From IMG/VR virus record IMGVR_UViG_3300037067_013660, positions 96,001 through 160,000 of that record: a DNA stretch of 64,000 nt; one strand, given 5' to 3'. The notes under the pieces were generated by a model. It searched no databases, was not told the DNA's origin, and saw only the letters and a program-made list of their open reading frames with translations. Shown here in pieces: positions 28,168-42,375 of this stretch. The position numbers and the translations under genes are program-made. Every line of letters starts with the position of its first letter. Position 1 is the first letter of the stretch. The DNA comes from a virus (taxonomy: Duplodnaviria > Caudoviricetes).

Positions 28168-28508
28168 AACCGCAAGCCGCCGAAATCACACTGACCGTTA
28201 CCAAGGTACTTGTGGCGCCATCATTCGCGCAAGCTCCAGGACATAGTGACTGAGGGTCTTGGCGTACGATACCCGTGTGCAATCTGGAAGAGCCCTAAAG
28301 CAACGCTGGGTTGGGAGAGGAGATCTCATCCTATTGTCAATACAACTGCATTCTCGATAGGTTCCGACACACCATTACGCAGTATCGTGATGTAATGTCT
28401 TGGTTAAATACCGACACATACGTTTTGTGCCAACGCAACGCAGAGTAACGATTTATCATTGACTAACCCGTAGCATGCCAGTACATTCGTGTCTGGAGGT
28501 CACGAGTA

Positions 28509-29451: not shown

Positions 29452-29994
29452 TCAACGGTACTTCGGCCAGTTTTCCGTTTCGCGTGGGTGGCGCGCTCGC
29501 ATTGGGTAGCGTTCAGGGTGCTGTAAATGACGTGCACAAAGGTCTGCATCTAAGGCAGGCCAGTAGAAGCCACCATCACCGATGAGTTGGACGTCTCGGA
29601 TCTCGTCGTCGGTGCCGTAGCGAAAAATTGGGTACGTGGTAAAATCGATCCAGTAGAGTTCTGTGTCGTAGTACAGCCAAAGACCCTTTGCCATAACCGC
29701 GTAAACAAACAAACGCGATCTATTGGCTGTTCTGTGGGCAGCAAAAAATGTACGCCAGGCGTCCATGATGACGTCATAGTGTTGCTCTACATAACGTTTT
29801 GACTTCCTGATGTCTGCGGCTTTTACGGCGGATTCTTTATGTTTTAGAGATACAGCACCAGCCTTAACTTTACCAAGCCACCACATAACAGTGCCACTAG
29901 GAGTGTCGACGTGTACGTGGGCTACGCTTCCTTCTGTACTATTAAAATAAAAACGAAAGCCGCCGACATTGATGGTAGTGATGGTGGGTGACAT
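29452..29994 (-). CDS. DUF4160-DUF2442 fusion (toxin-antitoxin-pair domains in one ORF)
   Basis: N-half MSPTI..VGGFRFYFNSTE..AHVHV...IMDAWRTFF; C-half YPIFRYGTDDEIRDV...GFYWPALDADL. Confidence 0.75.
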   Translation of the reverse strand: MSPTITTINVGGFRFYFNSTEGSVAHVHVDTPSGTVMWWLGKVKAGAVSLKHKESAVKAADIRKSKRYVEQHYDVIMDAWRTFFAAHRTANRSRLFVYAVMAKGLWLYYDTELYWIDFTTYPIFRYGTDDEIRDVQLIGDGGFYWPALDADLCARHLQHPERYPMRARHPRETENWPKYR

Positions 29995-30088
29995 TAATAG
30001 TACCTCTTCATTTCGTTAGCCTACTACGAAGCGCAGGGTCTGTCAATACCTATTATTCCTTACCCACTAGGTAGGATATGATTGGGCT

Positions 30089-30117
30089 TGACACCCCAGT
30101 CAGCGCCCGCTAGGATG
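30089..30117 (+). promoter_or_regulatory. Sigma70-type promoter of the tRNA array
   Basis: TTGACA-N17-TAGGAT. Confidence 0.75.
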
Positions 30118-30619: not shown

Positions 30620-30690
30620 GGAGCTATGGTGTAGTGGCAACACGTTGGACCGTCTATCCGAAACCCCGAGTTCGATTCTCGGTAGCTCCG
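30620..30690 (+). tRNA. tRNA-Asp(GTC), atypical loop CC-GTC-TA
   Basis: Full cloverleaf, acceptor GGAGCTA/TAGCTCC, discriminator G. Confidence 0.85.
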
Positions 30691-30695
30691 TTGAC

Positions 30696-30770
30696 GGGGA
30701 TATAGTGTAATCTGGAAACACGGGTGGCCTGATCCGAACCACCAATTGCGGTTCAAATCCGATATCCCTG
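30696..30770 (+). tRNA. Atypical or pseudo tRNA with an 11-nt anticodon loop
   Basis: GGGGATA/TATCCCT acceptor, GGTGG/CCACC stem, loop CCTGATCCGAA, T-stem one base short. Confidence 0.6.
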
Positions 30771-30774
30771 ATTT

Positions 30775-30846
30775 GGACTCTTGGTGTAATCGGCAGCACA
30801 GGAGACTGAAGATCTCTTAGTCCAGATTCGATTTCTGGGGGGTCCA
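30775..30846 (+). tRNA. tRNA-Phe(GAA)
   Basis: Cloverleaf, loop CT-GAA-GA. Confidence 0.85.
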
Positions 30847-30848
30847 TT

Positions 30849-30920
30849 GCCTCGGTAGCCTAGTGGTCAGGCACCAGTCCGTTAAACTGTTTTACGCGAG
30901 TTCGACTCTCGCCCGAGGCG
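30849..30920 (+). tRNA. tRNA-Asn(GTT), C33
   Basis: GCCTCGG/CCGAGGC acceptor, loop CC-GTT-AA. Confidence 0.85.
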
Positions 30921-30931
30921 TTAGGTATTTT

Positions 30932-31002
30932 GGAGAGATCGTCCAATGGTAGGACCCCAGACCGTAACTCTGCTAATCTAGGTTCGAGTCCTGCCCTCGT
31001 CA
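30932..31002 (+). tRNA. tRNA-Tyr(GTA)-like, short variable arm, weak acceptor stem
   Basis: GTCC/GGAC D-stem, loop CC-GTA-AC, GGTTCGAGTCC. Confidence 0.6.
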
Positions 31003-31007
31003 TCTAC

Positions 31008-31080
31008 GTGCCTGTAGTTCAATTGGCAGAACGATCGCTTGATGGGCGATAGGTTGGGGGTTCGACGCCCTCCAGGCACA
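31008..31080 (+). tRNA. tRNA-Ile(GAT), G37/G38
   Basis: GTGCCTG/CAGGCAC acceptor, loop TT-GAT-GG. Confidence 0.85.
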
Positions 31081-31084
31081 TTTT

Positions 31085-31165
31085 GGCTGGTACCGTGCAG
31101 GGCACAAACTAGGTCCGAACCCTAGGGCGGTCTAACGGCCGGGAGTTCGATTCTTCTACCAGCCT
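31085..31165 (+). tRNA. tRNA-Ser(CGA) with an 8/4-type fold
   Basis: 8-bp acceptor GGCTGGTA/TACCAGCC, 4-bp T-stem, tiny D-loop, long variable arm, loop TC-CGA-AC. Confidence 0.7.
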
Positions 31166-31172
31166 TTGTTTT

Positions 31173-31257
31173 GGAAGGATGGCTGAGTGGTAAGGGACCG
31201 GATTGCTAATCCGAGGTCATCGTAATGGATGCGCGTGTTCAATCCACGCCACCTCCT
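31173..31257 (+). tRNA. tRNA-Ser(GCT), mismatched acceptor stem
   Basis: Loop TT-GCT-AA, long variable arm, GCGTG/CACGC T-stem. Confidence 0.65.
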
Positions 31258-31258
31258 T

Positions 31259-31342
31259 GGAGGACGAGATGCAAGGCGCGCAAGCTGGTTGGAAGCCAGT
31301 TAGATCTGAAAAGATCGCCGAGTTCGATTCTCGGGCCTTCCG
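31259..31342 (+). tRNA. tRNA-Ser(GGA), atypical D-arm
   Basis: Loop TT-GGA-AG, variable stem GATCT/AGATC, CCGAG/CTCGG T-stem. Confidence 0.75.
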
Positions 31343-31343
31343 T

Positions 31344-31415
31344 GCGACCGTAGTGTAATTGGTAGCACGTAAGTCTTCCAAACTTGCGGTACGAGTTCAA
31401 GTCTCGTCGGTTGCT
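31344..31415 (+). tRNA. tRNA-Gly(TCC)
   Basis: Canonical cloverleaf, loop CT-TCC-AA, U73. Confidence 0.9.
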
Positions 31416-31497
31416 TTATGGGGTGTGGTCCGGCGACCAAATTGATACTGTACATGTGTGCGGGCGCGTGTTATAATATAATGCAGGAGTGTACCTA

Positions 31498-32253
31498 ATG
31501 CCGAAACCTAATTGTGTGTGCACTATTTGTGGAGAGTCGTTCTATAGAGGTAAAAGTAGACTCAAAAACATCAAGCATGGTGTCTATTGCTCGCGGGAGT
31601 GTTTTCAGTTAGCACCCAAAACACAGAAACCAGAAAAGCGGCAGAAGGCACGGAAGTTGCGTATTGACGGGTGGTCCGTAAACAAAATTGCGGACAAGTT
31701 GAGTGTGTCTAAAGGAACTGTAAGCTTATGGGTACGTGACATGCCCAGACCTGAAAACTTAATCCCCAAACCTAAACCAGAGCCCAAACTACACGTACGT
31801 AAACAATATGTGATGGATAGCCAAGGCTATGTAATGGTACCGCACCCACGAAACTACAAAAATACTACGTATTGTGGTGGTCGCTACGTATACTTACACC
31901 GACTTGTCATGGAACGTTTTCTGCGTAGATATTTAACTTCTACTGAGGTAGTACACCACATCAACGGAGACAAACAAGACAATCGGCTAGATAATCTTGA
32001 GATTACTACTGCATCTGCCCATGCTACGCATCACGGAAGAAAATCACGTCTTGGGAAATTTCGTTGTCCTGTATGTTCTGGTGAGTTCACGAGAGCTTTG
32101 CACCAAACACACTTAAAGCGGGCGACACGATTTACGTGCTGTTCAAGTAGTTGTGCTAATAGTATGATTGCTTATATCCGACGTGAAGGTTTCTCTAAAA
32201 ACATACAACACAAAATAAGACGTTCATTGCTTGAAGTTTTTATGTCGGATTAG
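31498..32253 (+). CDS. HNH homing endonuclease with HTH and Zn-finger modules
   Basis: YVYLHRLVME...VVHHINGDKQDNRLDNLE; lower GC than its surroundings. Confidence 0.9.
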   Translation: MPKPNCVCTICGESFYRGKSRLKNIKHGVYCSRECFQLAPKTQKPEKRQKARKLRIDGWSVNKIADKLSVSKGTVSLWVRDMPRPENLIPKPKPEPKLHVRKQYVMDSQGYVMVPHPRNYKNTTYCGGRYVYLHRLVMERFLRRYLTSTEVVHHINGDKQDNRLDNLEITTASAHATHHGRKSRLGKFRCPVCSGEFTRALHQTHLKRATRFTCCSSSCANSMIAYIRREGFSKNIQHKIRRSLLEVFMSD

Positions 32254-32381
32254 CATTCAATCAGTTGTCGAGGAGTTTGCCCCTCCCAGCCGGGTTCAAT
32301 TCCTGGGTGGCCCGTTTGTCTTGACATCTTCTCCTCACTTGTGTTAGGTTCCTAACCTACTTATTCTTTAGGGGTGCTGCG

Positions 32382-32891
32382 ATGCTAACCCTAGTGCTCG
32401 ACGTTGGCTACCAACCCATCAACATGGTGCCGCTTTCCCGTGCCCTCACGTACTTGGTGAAAGGCAAGGTGGAGCTACTGGAATCCTACGAGCAGCCCAT
32501 CCACCCGGATTGGCAAGCCCCGGCGGTCGTGCGGTTGACCCACTGGTTTCGGCCCTACGCCAAATACGTGCGATTTAATCGCCAGAACATTTTGGCGAGG
32601 GATCGGTGGCGTTGTCAGTACTGTGGTGATCAATTCGCTACCAAAGAATTGACGTTCGACCACCTGTACCCGAAGTCACGTGGTGGTAAAACTACCTGGG
32701 AAAACATCGTGGCGTGCTGCCGTCCGTGCAACACACAGAAGGGCAACCGCACGCCCAAAGAGGCCAGCATGACGTTGATGCGACAGCCCGTACGCCCCAA
32801 GTGGCTACCGGTCTTTAGTTTCGGACTGCAACGCTGTACCAATATTCCGTCCGAATGGCGGGACTACTGGAACGTTGAGATCGAAGCGTGA
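32382..32891 (+). CDS. HNH endonuclease (McrA-like)
   Basis: RQNILARDRWRCQYCG...TFDHLYPKSRGG..TWENIVACCRPCN..K. Confidence 0.9.
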   Translation: MLTLVLDVGYQPINMVPLSRALTYLVKGKVELLESYEQPIHPDWQAPAVVRLTHWFRPYAKYVRFNRQNILARDRWRCQYCGDQFATKELTFDHLYPKSRGGKTTWENIVACCRPCNTQKGNRTPKEASMTLMRQPVRPKWLPVFSFGLQRCTNIPSEWRDYWNVEIEA

Positions 32892-39254: not shown

Positions 39255-39277
39255 GGAGAGCCCTTCGCTGCCCGGAT

Positions 39278-39356
39278 TGCCAGGTGAGGGACTCGAACCC
39301 TCATGGTTTCCCGCTGGGTCCTAGGCCCAGTGCGTATGCCGTTCCGCCAACCTGGC
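39278..39356 (-). tRNA. tRNA-Leu(TAG), C33
   Basis: GCCAGGT/ACCTGGC acceptor, loop CC-TAG-GA, variable arm. Confidence 0.88.
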
Positions 39357-39367
39357 ACATCAGTATA

Positions 39368-39937
39368 TTAAGTTTCTTTGTTTTCGTTGTCAAACATTTT
39401 CAGCATGCGGGTTAAATCCGCGCTGGAGGGCCCATCTACTAACTTTCCTTCTCGTGCTTGCTGAAGGCCCGCCATGACGGATGCCAAGGCTTTCGGATTT
39501 TCGTACAACCATCGATTTTCTGGCGGAACCGGCGTAGTCGTGACCTCTACTAAACCAGGGGTGTACATGTTTTCTTTCGCCAGGACGCGTGACATTAATG
39601 TTGTGCGGTCGGTTTCCGACGCCGACGCCGATCCGCTTTCCCACGCGCACACCGTTTCGACGTCCGTGGACAGCATTCTAGCAAAGTCGTCCACCCTGAG
39701 CATCAGGGCTTTGCGGATGTATCGACAGACTTTTCCCGTGAGCCCGTGGCAAGACGTAAGCACTAGCGCGATCTTAATGTCGAACATCTCCATCGCGGGA
39801 CCATCGAAGTAGGCGACGCCGCATTTTGGACAAACGCTTCCCTTGACCTTAGCTTCGAAAAACCGCCCGTCAACGTACTGATGATCGGGTAGGCGAGTCT
39901 CTTCGGTTTCGACGGCGTGGCAGTTAACACATTTCAT
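39368..39937 (-). CDS. MqsA-like antitoxin (Zn finger plus HTH) with C-terminal extension
   Basis: MKCVNC...CPKCG..YF, IRKAL...FARML...V.AWESG. Confidence 0.78.
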   Translation of the reverse strand: MKCVNCHAVETEETRLPDHQYVDGRFFEAKVKGSVCPKCGVAYFDGPAMEMFDIKIALVLTSCHGLTGKVCRYIRKALMLRVDDFARMLSTDVETVCAWESGSASASETDRTTLMSRVLAKENMYTPGLVEVTTTPVPPENRWLYENPKALASVMAGLQQAREGKLVDGPSSADLTRMLKMFDNENKET

Positions 39938-41922: not shown

Positions 41923-41961
41923 GCGTTACCTTAACGTTGTTTTAGGTGGATGTCAAGAGTT

Positions 41962-42033
41962 TGGAGGCGCTGAGAATCGAACTCGGGCTTTTTGGTTGCA
42001 AGCCAAAAGTGCTACCATTATCACTACGCCCCC
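41962..42033 (-). tRNA. tRNA-Ala(TGC)
   Basis: GGGGGCG/CGCCTCC acceptor with G3.U70, loop CT-TGC-AA. Confidence 0.88.
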
Positions 42034-42040
42034 AACGTGA

Positions 42041-42148
42041 TGGAGCATGCAGGGTTCGAACCCGCATCTTCCGGTTTCGCCGGACGCTCTTCCAAGTCGC
42101 GAGCCTCGGGTGATCAATCCTCCGACCCGCAACCTGAGCTACTGCCCC
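42041..42148 (-). ncRNA. Anticodon-less tRNA-like RNA with an expanded D-loop
   Basis: GGGGCAG/ATGCTCC-A acceptor, GCTC/GAGC D-stem, TCCGG-CGAAA-CCGGA, GCGGG-TTCGAAC-CCTGC. Confidence 0.78.
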
Positions 42149-42291: not shown

Positions 42292-42375
42292 TGCCCGGAG
42301 CCAGAATCGAACTGGCCTGGAGTTTCCTCCGAGAGATTTTAAGTCTCTTGCGTCTACCAACTTCGCCATCCGGGC
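42292..42375 (-). tRNA. tRNA-Leu(TAA)
   Basis: GCCCGGA/TCCGGGC acceptor, loop CT-TAA-AA, variable stem. Confidence 0.92.

What the first reader, a model, noticed from the sequence alone, without database searches (positions are those of the whole stretch)
30620..31165. Systematic anticodon-loop rewiring: C33 replaces the near-invariant U33, including in all three GUN (queuosine-family) tRNAs
Seen loops: Asp CC-GTC-TA, Asn CC-GTT-AA, Tyr CC-GTA-AC, Ser TC-CGA-AC and Leu (39278-39356) CC-TAG-GA all have C33. Asp also has a pyrimidine at 37, and Ile has G37-G38. Established: U33 is almost universal; bacterial TGT recognises U33-G34-U35; t6A requires A37; anticodon nucleases read these loops and their modifications. 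Inference: the same change recurring in otherwise well-paired tRNAs (Asp, Asn, Leu, Ile) suggests selection to escape modification-dependent or sequence-specific tRNases rather than random decay.
Basis: partly seen in the sequence, partly recalled or inferred. Interest (0 to 1): 0.75.

Follow-up and report, generated by a model that had tools for sequence, protein, structure and literature searches.

The report
Phage tRNA genes with C33 loops
Five of about thirteen tRNA genes in this uncultured giant phage, including all three that would normally receive queuosine, carry C where almost every tRNA has U just before the anticodon; this is real and more than chance, similar C33 genes occur at low rates in other phages, and its purpose is untested.

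Summary
Asp, Asn and Leu(UAG) are well-formed tRNAs (52-58 bits). The Tyr-like and Ser(CGA) genes are structurally deviant.

C33 is far above background. It occurs in 14 of 930 tRNAs (1.5%) in 117 IMG/VR phage loci and in 0 of 184 cellular tRNAs found with the same probe. Among GUN tRNAs it is 1 of 115 in the background against 3 of 3 here. The five genes are not paralogues, and T-loop invariants are intact in all 13, so random decay alone fits poorly.

Published biochemistry predicts that C33 blocks queuosine insertion (TGT needs U33-G34-U35) and bacterial t6A37. Colicin E5 and gamma-toxin, however, cut U33C substrates normally, so nuclease escape is unsupported for the two nucleases that have been tested.

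The kind is not new. C33 sits in tRNA-Val of cluster C1 mycobacteriophages (supplement of PMC10264068) and in 4 of 56 tRNAs of Sinorhizobium phage Phosso. This scan has also reported C33-rich phage tRNA sets on other DNA at least seven times.

I found no relative that carries this array. Conservation, expression and charging therefore remain untested.

The parts
30088..30116 (+). Sigma-70-like promoter match (TTGACA-17-TAGGAT) about 500 nt upstream of the array
   Evidence: This is a consensus match only, not evidence of function.
30620..30691 (+). tRNA-Asp(GUC), loop CCGUCUA: C33, U37, A38. All stems paired, G10 and G73 present.
   Evidence: ARAGORN at default threshold; Rfam tRNA 55.9 bits; structure read.
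30696..30771 (+). tRNA-like gene with an 11-nt anticodon loop (CCUGAUCCGAA) and a weak T-stem
   Evidence: Rfam tRNA 35.2 bits; ARAGORN only at -ps90; poor fold.
30775..30847 (+). tRNA-Phe(GAA), loop CUGAAGA with normal U33; has A53-U61 in place of G53-C61
   Evidence: (53.1 bits).
30849..30921 (+). tRNA-Asn(GUU), loop CCGUUAA: C33, A37. G73 present, one C-U mismatch at 27-43.
   Evidence: (58.5 bits). The minimum-energy fold is the cloverleaf, z -2.8.
30932..31004 (+). Tyr-like tRNA gene (GUA), loop CCGUAAC: C33. Short variable loop, acceptor stem with two mismatches.
   Evidence: Rfam 32.8 bits; ARAGORN only at -ps90; no cloverleaf fold. Sixteen of the 17 phage tRNA-Tyr in the background are 79-93 nt, the long-arm type.
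31008..31080 (+). tRNA-Ile(GAU), loop UUGAUGG: U33, but G37 G38, so there is no A37 for t6A
   Evidence: (61.1 bits).
31085..31165 (+). Ser(CGA)-like gene, loop UCCGAAC: C33. Acceptor and anticodon stems are perfect and the variable arm is long, but it has A8, U73 and a 4-bp D-stem with a 3-nt loop.
   Evidence: ARAGORN only at -ps90; only a 25.9-bit match to tRNA-Sec in Rfam.
31173..31257 (+). tRNA-Ser(GCU), loop UUGCUAA with U33; weak acceptor stem
   Evidence: (27 bits, below the cut-off).
31259..31343 (+). tRNA-Ser(GGA), loop UUGGAAG with U33
31344..31415 (+). tRNA-Gly(UCC), loop CUUCCAA with U33; last gene of the array
   Evidence: (65 bits).
39277..39356 (-). tRNA-Leu(UAG), loop CCUAGGA: C33. 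All stems perfect, A73 present.
   Evidence: (51.8 bits); cloverleaf fold, z -2.1. The nearest known homologue (Sinorhizobium phage Phosso, 81.5% identity) has U33.
39365..39393 (-). Sigma-70-like promoter match (TTGACA-17-TAATAT) ending 9 nt before the 5' end of tRNA-Leu(UAG)
   Evidence: This is a consensus match only.
41961..42033 (-). tRNA-Ala(UGC), loop CUUGCAA with U33 (comparator)
   Evidence: (55.3 bits).
42292..42375 (-). tRNA-Leu(UAA), loop CUUAAAA with U33 (comparator)
   Evidence: (54.2 bits).

Best explanation
At least three of the five C33 genes (Asp, Asn, Leu-UAG) are working phage tRNAs in which U33-to-C is a tolerated, probably maintained variant. It alters how host enzymes that read the anticodon loop see them.

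Shown here: the substitution is real, position-specific, independent in each gene and far above the phage background.

From published biochemistry: C33 removes the U33-G34-U35 signal of tRNA-guanine transglycosylase, so Asp, Asn and Tyr-type tRNAs should keep G34 and not acquire queuosine. It is also an anti-determinant for bacterial t6A37 synthesis, which affects Asn. G37 in Ile removes the A37 that t6A modifies, and U37 in Asp puts a pyrimidine where nearly all tRNAs have a purine.

Inferred: the phage gains hypomodified decoders. These would either be invisible to a host enzyme that needs U33 or one of these modifications, or be tuned to the phage's C-ending codons. No such host enzyme is known.
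For: - Loops were read by two programs.
- Asp, Asn and Leu(UAG) score 52-58 bits with complete stems and the expected discriminator bases. Asn and Leu fold as cloverleaves.
- C33 is enriched: 14/930 in background, never more than 2 per locus, against 3/11 or 5/13 here. For GUN tRNAs it is 1/115 against 3/3.
- The C33 genes are not paralogues.
- G53, U54, U55, C56, A58 and C61 are intact in 13 of 13 genes, except one A53-U61 pair in Phe. In phage tRNAs generally, U33 is as conserved as those positions (97.8% against 96.1-98.4%).
- C33 tRNAs in other phages are high-scoring: 44-68 bits for 13 of the 14, the fourteenth not listed at the cut-off. They also occur in cultured phages: Phosso has 4/56, and C1 mycobacteriophage tRNA-Val(GAC) and Val(CAC) carry C33 in 88-89% of 161 genomes.
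- Cellular control: 0/184.
- Biochemistry.
- The phage prefers GAC, AAC and UAC (65-76% of each pair), which suits unmodified G34 (PMC8682783).
- Leu(UAG) has a promoter-like site directly upstream.
Against: - There are no data on expression, aminoacylation or modification.
- No relative with the array was found, so conservation of C33 in this lineage is unknown. The nearest relatives lack tRNAs at the syntenic places.
- Two C33 genes are defective-looking, and the array holds other odd members, which suggests relaxed constraint.
- C33 frequency rises with GC content: 0.9% below 45% GC and 3-4% above.
- In one related pair of background phages (L007 and L048, tRNAs 82-83% identical), C33 and U33 alternate, so the state can be labile.
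- Colicin E5 and gamma-toxin cut U33C substrates normally.
- The held part of the genome has no tRNA repair or modification genes that would point to a tRNA conflict.
Confidence: 0.45

Rival explanations
1. Near-neutral drift. Phage tRNAs only supplement the host pool, so constraint is relaxed. U33-to-C is the least harmful change at this position, and GC-biased mutation in a 56% GC phage lets it accumulate. On this reading the array is partly decaying and C33 has no purpose.
For: C33 frequency rises with locus GC. The array contains several degraded or odd members: the 11-nt-loop gene, the Tyr-like gene, Ser-CGA, Ser-GCU at 27 bits, and the tRNA-like RNA at 42041-42148. Relatives lack the array. 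C33 and U33 alternate between the related background phages L007 and L048. C is the commonest non-U base at position 33 in phage tRNAs.
Against: Decay should hit other invariant positions too, yet the T-loop invariants are intact in all 13 genes while position 33 is changed in 5. Even at the high-GC rate of 3.8%, P(>=5/13) is 8e-5. The three best-formed genes differ from canon only in the anticodon loop. All three GUN tRNAs are hit, against 1/115 in the background.
Confidence: 0.35
2. Non-decoding roles. Some or all of the C33 genes make tRNA-shaped decoys that soak up host tRNA-targeting or tRNA-modifying enzymes, or act as regulators, and do not deliver amino acids.
For: The same genome carries tRNA-like genes that cannot decode: the 11-nt-loop gene at 30696-30771, and the RNA at 42041-42148, which has a 44-nt insertion in its D-loop and a 4-nt anticodon loop. 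The Tyr-like and Ser-CGA genes lack features their synthetases normally need. The PARIS study raises inhibition of AriB by over-expressed viral tRNAs as a possibility (PMC12409363).
Against: Asp, Asn and Leu(UAG) keep their discriminator bases, anticodons and full cloverleaves. They match frequent phage codons. No binding partner is known.
Confidence: 0.12
3. Restoration by editing. C33 is converted to U or pseudouridine after transcription by a phage or host deaminase, so the mature tRNAs are canonical.
For: From my own knowledge, not checked in a paper here: C-to-pseudouridine editing at position 32 of Vibrio cholerae tRNA-Tyr is a bacterial precedent. The shared CC or UC context is at least compatible with a site-specific enzyme.
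Against: The held 197 kb has no match to the cytidine/dCMP deaminase family or to pseudouridine synthase family 2. No editing at position 33 is known. C33 is spread over many unrelated phages and tRNA types.
Confidence: 0.03

Closest known systems
Phage tRNAs with anticodon-loop substitutions proposed to be insensitive to host tRNases (van den Berg et al. 2023, PMC10264068); experimentally, T5 tRNA-Lys, Thr and Asn against the PARIS nuclease AriB (PMC11464382, PMC12409363)
   Same: These are phage-encoded tRNAs that differ from canonical tRNAs in the anticodon loop. That paper already suggests that loop changes in coliphage GUN tRNAs may prevent wobble modification or colicin E5 recognition. 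Its supplement lists C1 mycobacteriophage tRNA-Val(GAC) and Val(CAC) with C33 loops.
   Different: The changes that have been studied lie at the cleavage sites: positions 39-41 for AriB, and the VapC sites. Position 33 is not mentioned in that paper's main text. Here neither the host nor any nuclease is known, and nothing has been assayed.
C33 tRNAs of other phages: Sinorhizobium jumbo phage Phosso (PV764938.1), IMG/VR loci L007, L059 and L100, and C33-rich sets reported earlier in this scan
   Same: The same U33-to-C change occurs in otherwise high-scoring tRNAs. C33 precedes G34 more often than expected: 9/14 against 289/910, p = 0.017.
   Different: Elsewhere in my sample, at most 2 of about 20 tRNAs per locus (4 of 56 in Phosso) carry C33, and GUN tRNAs are almost never the ones hit (1/115). 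Here the share is 3/11 to 5/13 and includes every GUN tRNA present.
Initiator tRNA-Met of multicellular eukaryotes, the classic natural C33 tRNA (PMC8887486)
   Same: It is a functional tRNA with C33. C33 acts as an anti-determinant for the yeast and E. coli t6A enzymes.
   Different: It is an initiator that binds the P site, in eukaryotes whose t6A enzymes have adapted to C33. The genes here are elongator-type tRNAs in a bacteriophage.

Membership tests
Canonical bacterial-type elongator tRNA (Rfam RF00005) | Cloverleaf scoring above the curated cut-off of 29 bits | tested here: met
   Asp 55.9, Asn 58.5, Leu(UAG) 51.8 and Tyr-like 32.8 bits. Ser(CGA) is not met: it gives only 25.9 bits, and to tRNA-Sec.
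Canonical bacterial-type elongator tRNA (Rfam RF00005) | U33 and a purine at position 37 in a 7-nt anticodon loop | tested here: not met
   C33 in Asp, Asn, Tyr-like, Ser(CGA) and Leu(UAG). Asp also has U37.
Canonical bacterial-type elongator tRNA (Rfam RF00005) | Conserved T-loop (G53 U54 U55 C56 A58 C61) | tested here: met
   Intact in all 13 genes, except A53-U61 in Phe.
Substrates of bacterial tRNA-guanine transglycosylase (queuosine tRNAs) | U33-G34-U35 in a 7-nt anticodon loop | tested here: not met
   The loops read C33-G34-U35 in Asp, Asn and Tyr-like. The requirement comes from the literature. No enzyme assay was done.
Substrates of bacterial t6A37 synthesis (TsaBCDE) | U36-A37 together with U33 (U33C is not modified by the E. 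coli enzymes) | tested here: not met
   Asn has U36-A37 but C33. Ile has U33 but G37. The requirement is from PMC8887486.
Nuclease-insensitive phage tRNAs (van den Berg 2023; T5 against PARIS) | Phage-encoded tRNA with an anticodon-loop difference from the host's tRNA | tested here: inconclusive
   Phage origin and the departure from the universal consensus are shown. The host is unknown, so no comparison with host tRNAs is possible.
Nuclease-insensitive phage tRNAs (van den Berg 2023; T5 against PARIS) | The changed nucleotide lies in the recognition or cleavage site of a known host tRNase and confers resistance | not testable with these tools
   No nuclease is known to require U33. Colicin E5 and gamma-toxin accept C33.
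Bacterial tRNA-Tyr | Long variable arm (class II) and a paired acceptor stem with A73 | tested here: not met
   The gene at 30932-31004 has a 4-nt variable loop and two acceptor mismatches; A73 is present. Sixteen of the 17 background phage tRNA-Tyr are 79-93 nt.

The most novel reading that the evidence does not exclude
C33 is a deliberate anti-determinant used by many phages. By removing the U that TGT, the t6A enzymes and perhaps an undiscovered U33-reading or modification-dependent defence nuclease all require, the phage would run a private set of hypomodified tRNAs that host immunity cannot see or cut. In this phage the device would be aimed at the whole queuosine family.
Probability: 0.25. 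Interest if true: 0.8.

Novelty: new variant of a known kind. Interest (0 to 1): 0.45.

Why it matters
U33 makes the U-turn of the anticodon loop and is one of the most conserved nucleotides in biology. If phages keep working elongator tRNAs with C33, two things would follow.

- The position would be less essential for decoding than is usually assumed.
- Phages would have a one-base way to opt out of host tRNA modification (queuosine, t6A), and possibly out of host tRNA-directed immunity.

This phage offers a clean test set. Asp, Asn and Leu(UAG) differ from canon essentially only in the loop, so C33 and U33 versions can be compared directly in TGT, TsaBCDE, aminoacylation, translation and nuclease assays.

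Tried and rejected
**Relatives of the array.** None was found.
- Exact and purine/pyrimidine-degenerate tRNA patterns in viral contigs and metagenome contigs gave nothing.
- Single-protein and profile searches with neighbouring genes found only loci without tRNAs (21, 33, 58).
- The 82-95% identical relative L003 (a contig of NCBI MAG GCA_028687775.1) is syntenic only up to window position ~27838. Beyond that it has helicase, TnpB and ThyX genes where this phage has the array.
- That MAG is not held in genome contigs.
- Contigs carrying the 62% and 71% identical VWA-protein homologues have no tRNAs.
- The 365-kb relative L002 cannot be searched whole.
- GenBank phages have no DNA match to the array.

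**Explanations rejected.**
- Assembly error: a second assembly is identical.
- Reading the opposite strand or another stem register: by my own reading of the sequence, none gives a U at position 33.
- Recent duplication of one C33 ancestor: pairwise identity is no higher than to the U33 genes.
- Phage-encoded editing or tRNA enzymes: the held 197 kb has no TGT, RNA ligase, CCA-adding enzyme, cytidine deaminase or pseudouridine synthase.
- Enrichment of C33 in tRNAs that read ANN codons (t6A substrates): not significant in the background, 7/14 against 341/910.

Full report
**Where the window lies.** The window is bases 96001-160000 of a 196,895-bp IMG/VR phage contig that CheckV rates 56% complete, so the phage is a jumbo phage of perhaps 350 kb. 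GC content is 55.8%. All tRNA genes of the held sequence lie in this window.

**The observation.** ARAGORN at its default threshold finds 11 tRNA genes. At a relaxed threshold it adds three more inside the same tight array. Rfam covariance models agree on the placement.

The array at 30620-31415 holds ten tRNA-shaped genes separated by 0-10 nt. None encodes CCA. Four more tRNA-shaped genes lie on the minus strand between 39277 and 42375: Leu(UAG), Ala(UGC), Leu(UAA), and a tRNA-like RNA at 42041-42148 that I do not count among the 13 genes tabulated here.

The anticodon loops (positions 32-38) are:

| Gene | Loop | Position 33 |
|---|---|---|
| Asp | CCGUCUA | C |
| Gene at 30696-30771 | 11-nt loop | – |
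| Phe | CUGAAGA | U |
| Asn | CCGUUAA | C |
| Tyr-like | CCGUAAC | C |
| Ile | UUGAUGG | U |
| Ser(CGA) | UCCGAAC | C |
| Ser(GCU) | UUGCUAA | U |
| Ser(GGA) | UUGGAAG | U |
| Gly | CUUCCAA | U |
| Leu(UAG) | CCUAGGA | C |
| Ala | CUUGCAA | U |
| Leu(UAA) | CUUAAAA | U |

**Quality of the five C33 genes.** Asp, Asn and Leu(UAG) score 55.9, 58.5 and 51.8 bits. They have complete stems, normal D- and T-loops, and the discriminator bases expected for their amino acids (G73, G73, A73). Asn and Leu fold into the cloverleaf as the minimum-energy structure.

The Tyr-like gene is weak. It scores 32.8 bits, has two acceptor mismatches and no cloverleaf fold, and has a short variable loop. Sixteen of the 17 phage tRNA-Tyr in my background set are of the long-arm type.

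Ser(CGA) has perfect acceptor and anticodon stems and a long variable arm. It also has A8, U73 and a D-arm reduced to a 4-bp stem with a 3-nt loop, and it misses the Rfam tRNA cut-off.

So three C33 genes look like working tRNAs and two are doubtful.

**Is it more than chance?** I fetched 117 IMG/VR loci that share a 17-nt T-arm word with this array, a probe that is blind to position 33. I ran ARAGORN on them.

- Of 930 tRNAs with 7-nt loops, 910 have U33, 14 have C33 (1.5%), 5 have A and 1 has G. No locus has more than two C33 genes.
- The same word fetched 120 stretches of bacterial and archaeal genomes. All 184 tRNAs found there have U33.
- Against the 1.5% rate, three of eleven (default calls) has P = 5e-4 and five of thirteen has P = 9e-7.
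- C33 is commoner in GC-rich phage loci: 0.9% below 45% GC and 3-4% above. With the 3.8% rate of loci at 50% GC or more, the probabilities are 7e-3 and 8e-5.
- Among GUN tRNAs, the background has one C33 in 115 against three of three here (Fisher 1.5e-5).

The five genes are no more alike than any other pair in the array (identity 0.52-0.63), so they are not copies of one C33 ancestor.

In phage tRNAs generally, U33 is as conserved as the T-loop invariants (97.8% against 96.1-98.4%). In this phage those invariants are intact in all 13 genes while position 33 is changed in five. Random decay alone therefore fits poorly.

An independent Logan assembly is identical over the whole region.

**The other loop oddities.** U37 in tRNA-Asp is not peculiar to this phage. 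Thirteen of 38 phage tRNA-Asp in the background have GUC followed by U37, as do both tRNA-Asp genes of phage Phosso. The three cellular tRNA-Asp in the control all read CUGUCAC. G37 in tRNA-Ile(GAU) is rare: 1 of 28.

**What C33 should do.** Published experiments bear on this directly.

- Bacterial and eukaryotic TGT need U33-G34-U35 in a 7-nt loop (Nakanishi 1994 as cited in PMC1635277; PMC8136771).
- The reconstituted E. coli TsaBCDE system does not put t6A on a U33C tRNA, and the authors call C33 an anti-determinant (PMC8887486).
- E. coli TrmJ is indifferent to U33C (PMC4105751).
- On the nuclease side, a U-to-C change at the position corresponding to U33 leaves a tRNA-Tyr minihelix fully sensitive to colicin E5. 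That enzyme attacks exactly the Tyr, His, Asn and Asp tRNAs and needs only a pyrimidine there.
- K. lactis gamma-toxin also cuts a C33 stem-loop with wild-type kinetics.
- The phage tRNAs known to resist PARIS AriB differ at positions 39-41, not at 33.

The firm prediction is therefore loss of queuosine in Asp, Asn and the Tyr-like RNA, and loss of t6A in Asn. Ile lacks A37 for t6A in any case. Escape from a nuclease is conjecture.

One possible benefit does not need a nuclease. The phage strongly prefers GAC, AAC and UAC (65-76% of each pair). [quoted passage not shown] That idea does not cover Leu(UAG) or Ser(CGA).

**Is the kind known?** The general idea is published: phage tRNAs carry anticodon-loop changes that make them insensitive to host tRNases (van den Berg et al. 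2023, PMC10264068). That paper even suggests that loop changes in coliphage GUN tRNAs may prevent wobble modification. Its main text never mentions position 33.

Its supplement, however, lists tRNA-Val(GAC) with loop UCGACAC and tRNA-Val(CAC) with loop UCCACAC, both C33, in 88-89% of 161 cluster C1 mycobacteriophages.

The cultured Sinorhizobium jumbo phage Phosso has C33 in 4 of 56 tRNAs: Pro-GGG, Val-GAC, Ile-GAU and Leu-GAG. Of the 14 C33 tRNAs in my IMG/VR sample, 13 score 44-68 bits; the fourteenth (Pro-UGG in L059) is not listed at the cut-off.

A full-text search for C33, U33, tRNA and phage together found no paper that describes the phenomenon.

Notes from this scan report C33-rich phage tRNA sets in at least seven other genomes. 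I treated these as leads. My own phage and cellular rates agree with theirs, and I verified the C1 tRNA-Val lead in the supplement. So the kind exists in public data, although nobody has named it in the papers I could search. This phage is an unusually C33-rich example whose special feature is that the whole queuosine family is hit.

**Two patterns from the pooled data.** C33 precedes G34 more often than expected: 9 of 14 against 289 of 910, odds ratio 3.9, p = 0.017; here it is 3 of 5. The identical tRNA-Val(GAC) loop UCGACAC recurs in four unrelated sources: C1 mycobacteriophages, Phosso, L013 and L100.

**Limits.** I could not find any relative that carries this array (see the field on what was tried). 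The closest relative, 82-95% identical in protein, diverges from this genome exactly where the tRNA region begins. More distant relatives have no tRNAs beside the conserved neighbouring genes. The array therefore lies in a variable region, and conservation of C33 in this lineage is unknown.

The nearest known homologue of any C33 gene, tRNA-Leu(UAG) of Phosso at 81.5% identity, has U33. This fits U33 as the ancestral state. In one related pair of background phages, C33 and U33 alternate.

Evidence for expression is limited to promoter-like matches. One has a perfect TTGACA and ends 9 nt before Leu(UAG). Another lies 500 nt upstream of the array. The held genome has no TGT, RNA ligase, CCA-adding enzyme, cytidine deaminase or pseudouridine synthase.

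**Verdict.** The most likely reading (0.45) is that Asp, Asn and Leu(UAG) are working tRNAs in which C33 is a maintained variant. It would keep them free of queuosine and t6A, and possibly out of reach of an unknown host enzyme.

The main rival (0.35) is near-neutral drift at the least harmful non-U base, under GC pressure, in a partly decaying array. Decoy roles (0.12) and editing back to U (0.03) are minor.

Its nuclease argument is not supported for the nucleases tested so far.

Noticed in passing
window 30696-30771 (+): A tRNA-shaped gene inside the array has a 5-bp anticodon stem closing an 11-nt loop (CCUGAUCCGAA) and only a 3-bp T-stem. It scores 35.2 bits on Rfam tRNA. It cannot decode normally.
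   Followed up: partly
background loci L006-L122; L250-L280 (Phosso): U37 after the GUC anticodon is a common trait of phage tRNA-Asp: 13 of 38 in the IMG/VR sample and both Phosso copies. All three cellular tRNA-Asp in the control read CUGUCAC. I know of no description of this.
   Followed up: partly
background loci; supplement of PMC10264068; Phosso: C33 precedes G34 more often than expected (9/14 against 289/910, p = 0.017). The identical tRNA-Val(GAC) loop UCGACAC recurs in C1 mycobacteriophages, Phosso, L013 and L100.
   Followed up: partly
window 31085-31165 (+): The Ser(CGA)-like gene has a D-arm like that of tRNA-Sec (long stem, tiny loop), A8 and U73, with perfect acceptor and anticodon stems and a long variable arm. 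Its only Rfam match is 25.9 bits, to tRNA-Sec.
   Followed up: partly
window ~27838 compared with L003:9605: Synteny with the 82-95% identical relative (a contig of MAG GCA_028687775.1, binned as Candidatus Portnoybacteria) stops about 2.8 kb before the tRNA array. The relative has a 1083-aa helicase, a TnpB-like gene and ThyX there. The Logan assembly also breaks at window position 28185.
   Followed up: partly
window 39368-39937 (-), 29452-29994 (-), 31489-32891 (+): Genes beside the tRNAs look like conflict or mobility genes. They are an MqsA-antitoxin-like protein next to Leu(UAG), a DUF4160-DUF2442 fusion next to the array, and two HNH endonucleases just downstream of it.
   Followed up: no
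window 30775-30847 (+): tRNA-Phe has A53-U61 where nearly all tRNAs have G53-C61 (non-consensus in 1.7% of the phage background).
   Followed up: no
L077:4343-4640: An IMG/VR phage contig carries a permuted tmRNA (107.5 bits) inside its tRNA array.
   Followed up: no
L250-L280 (Sinorhizobium phage Phosso, PV764938.1): Phosso carries two tRNAs with the amber anticodon CUA. Its tRNA-Leu(UAG) is the nearest known relative of this window's Leu(UAG), a weak hint of an alphaproteobacterial host.
   Followed up: no
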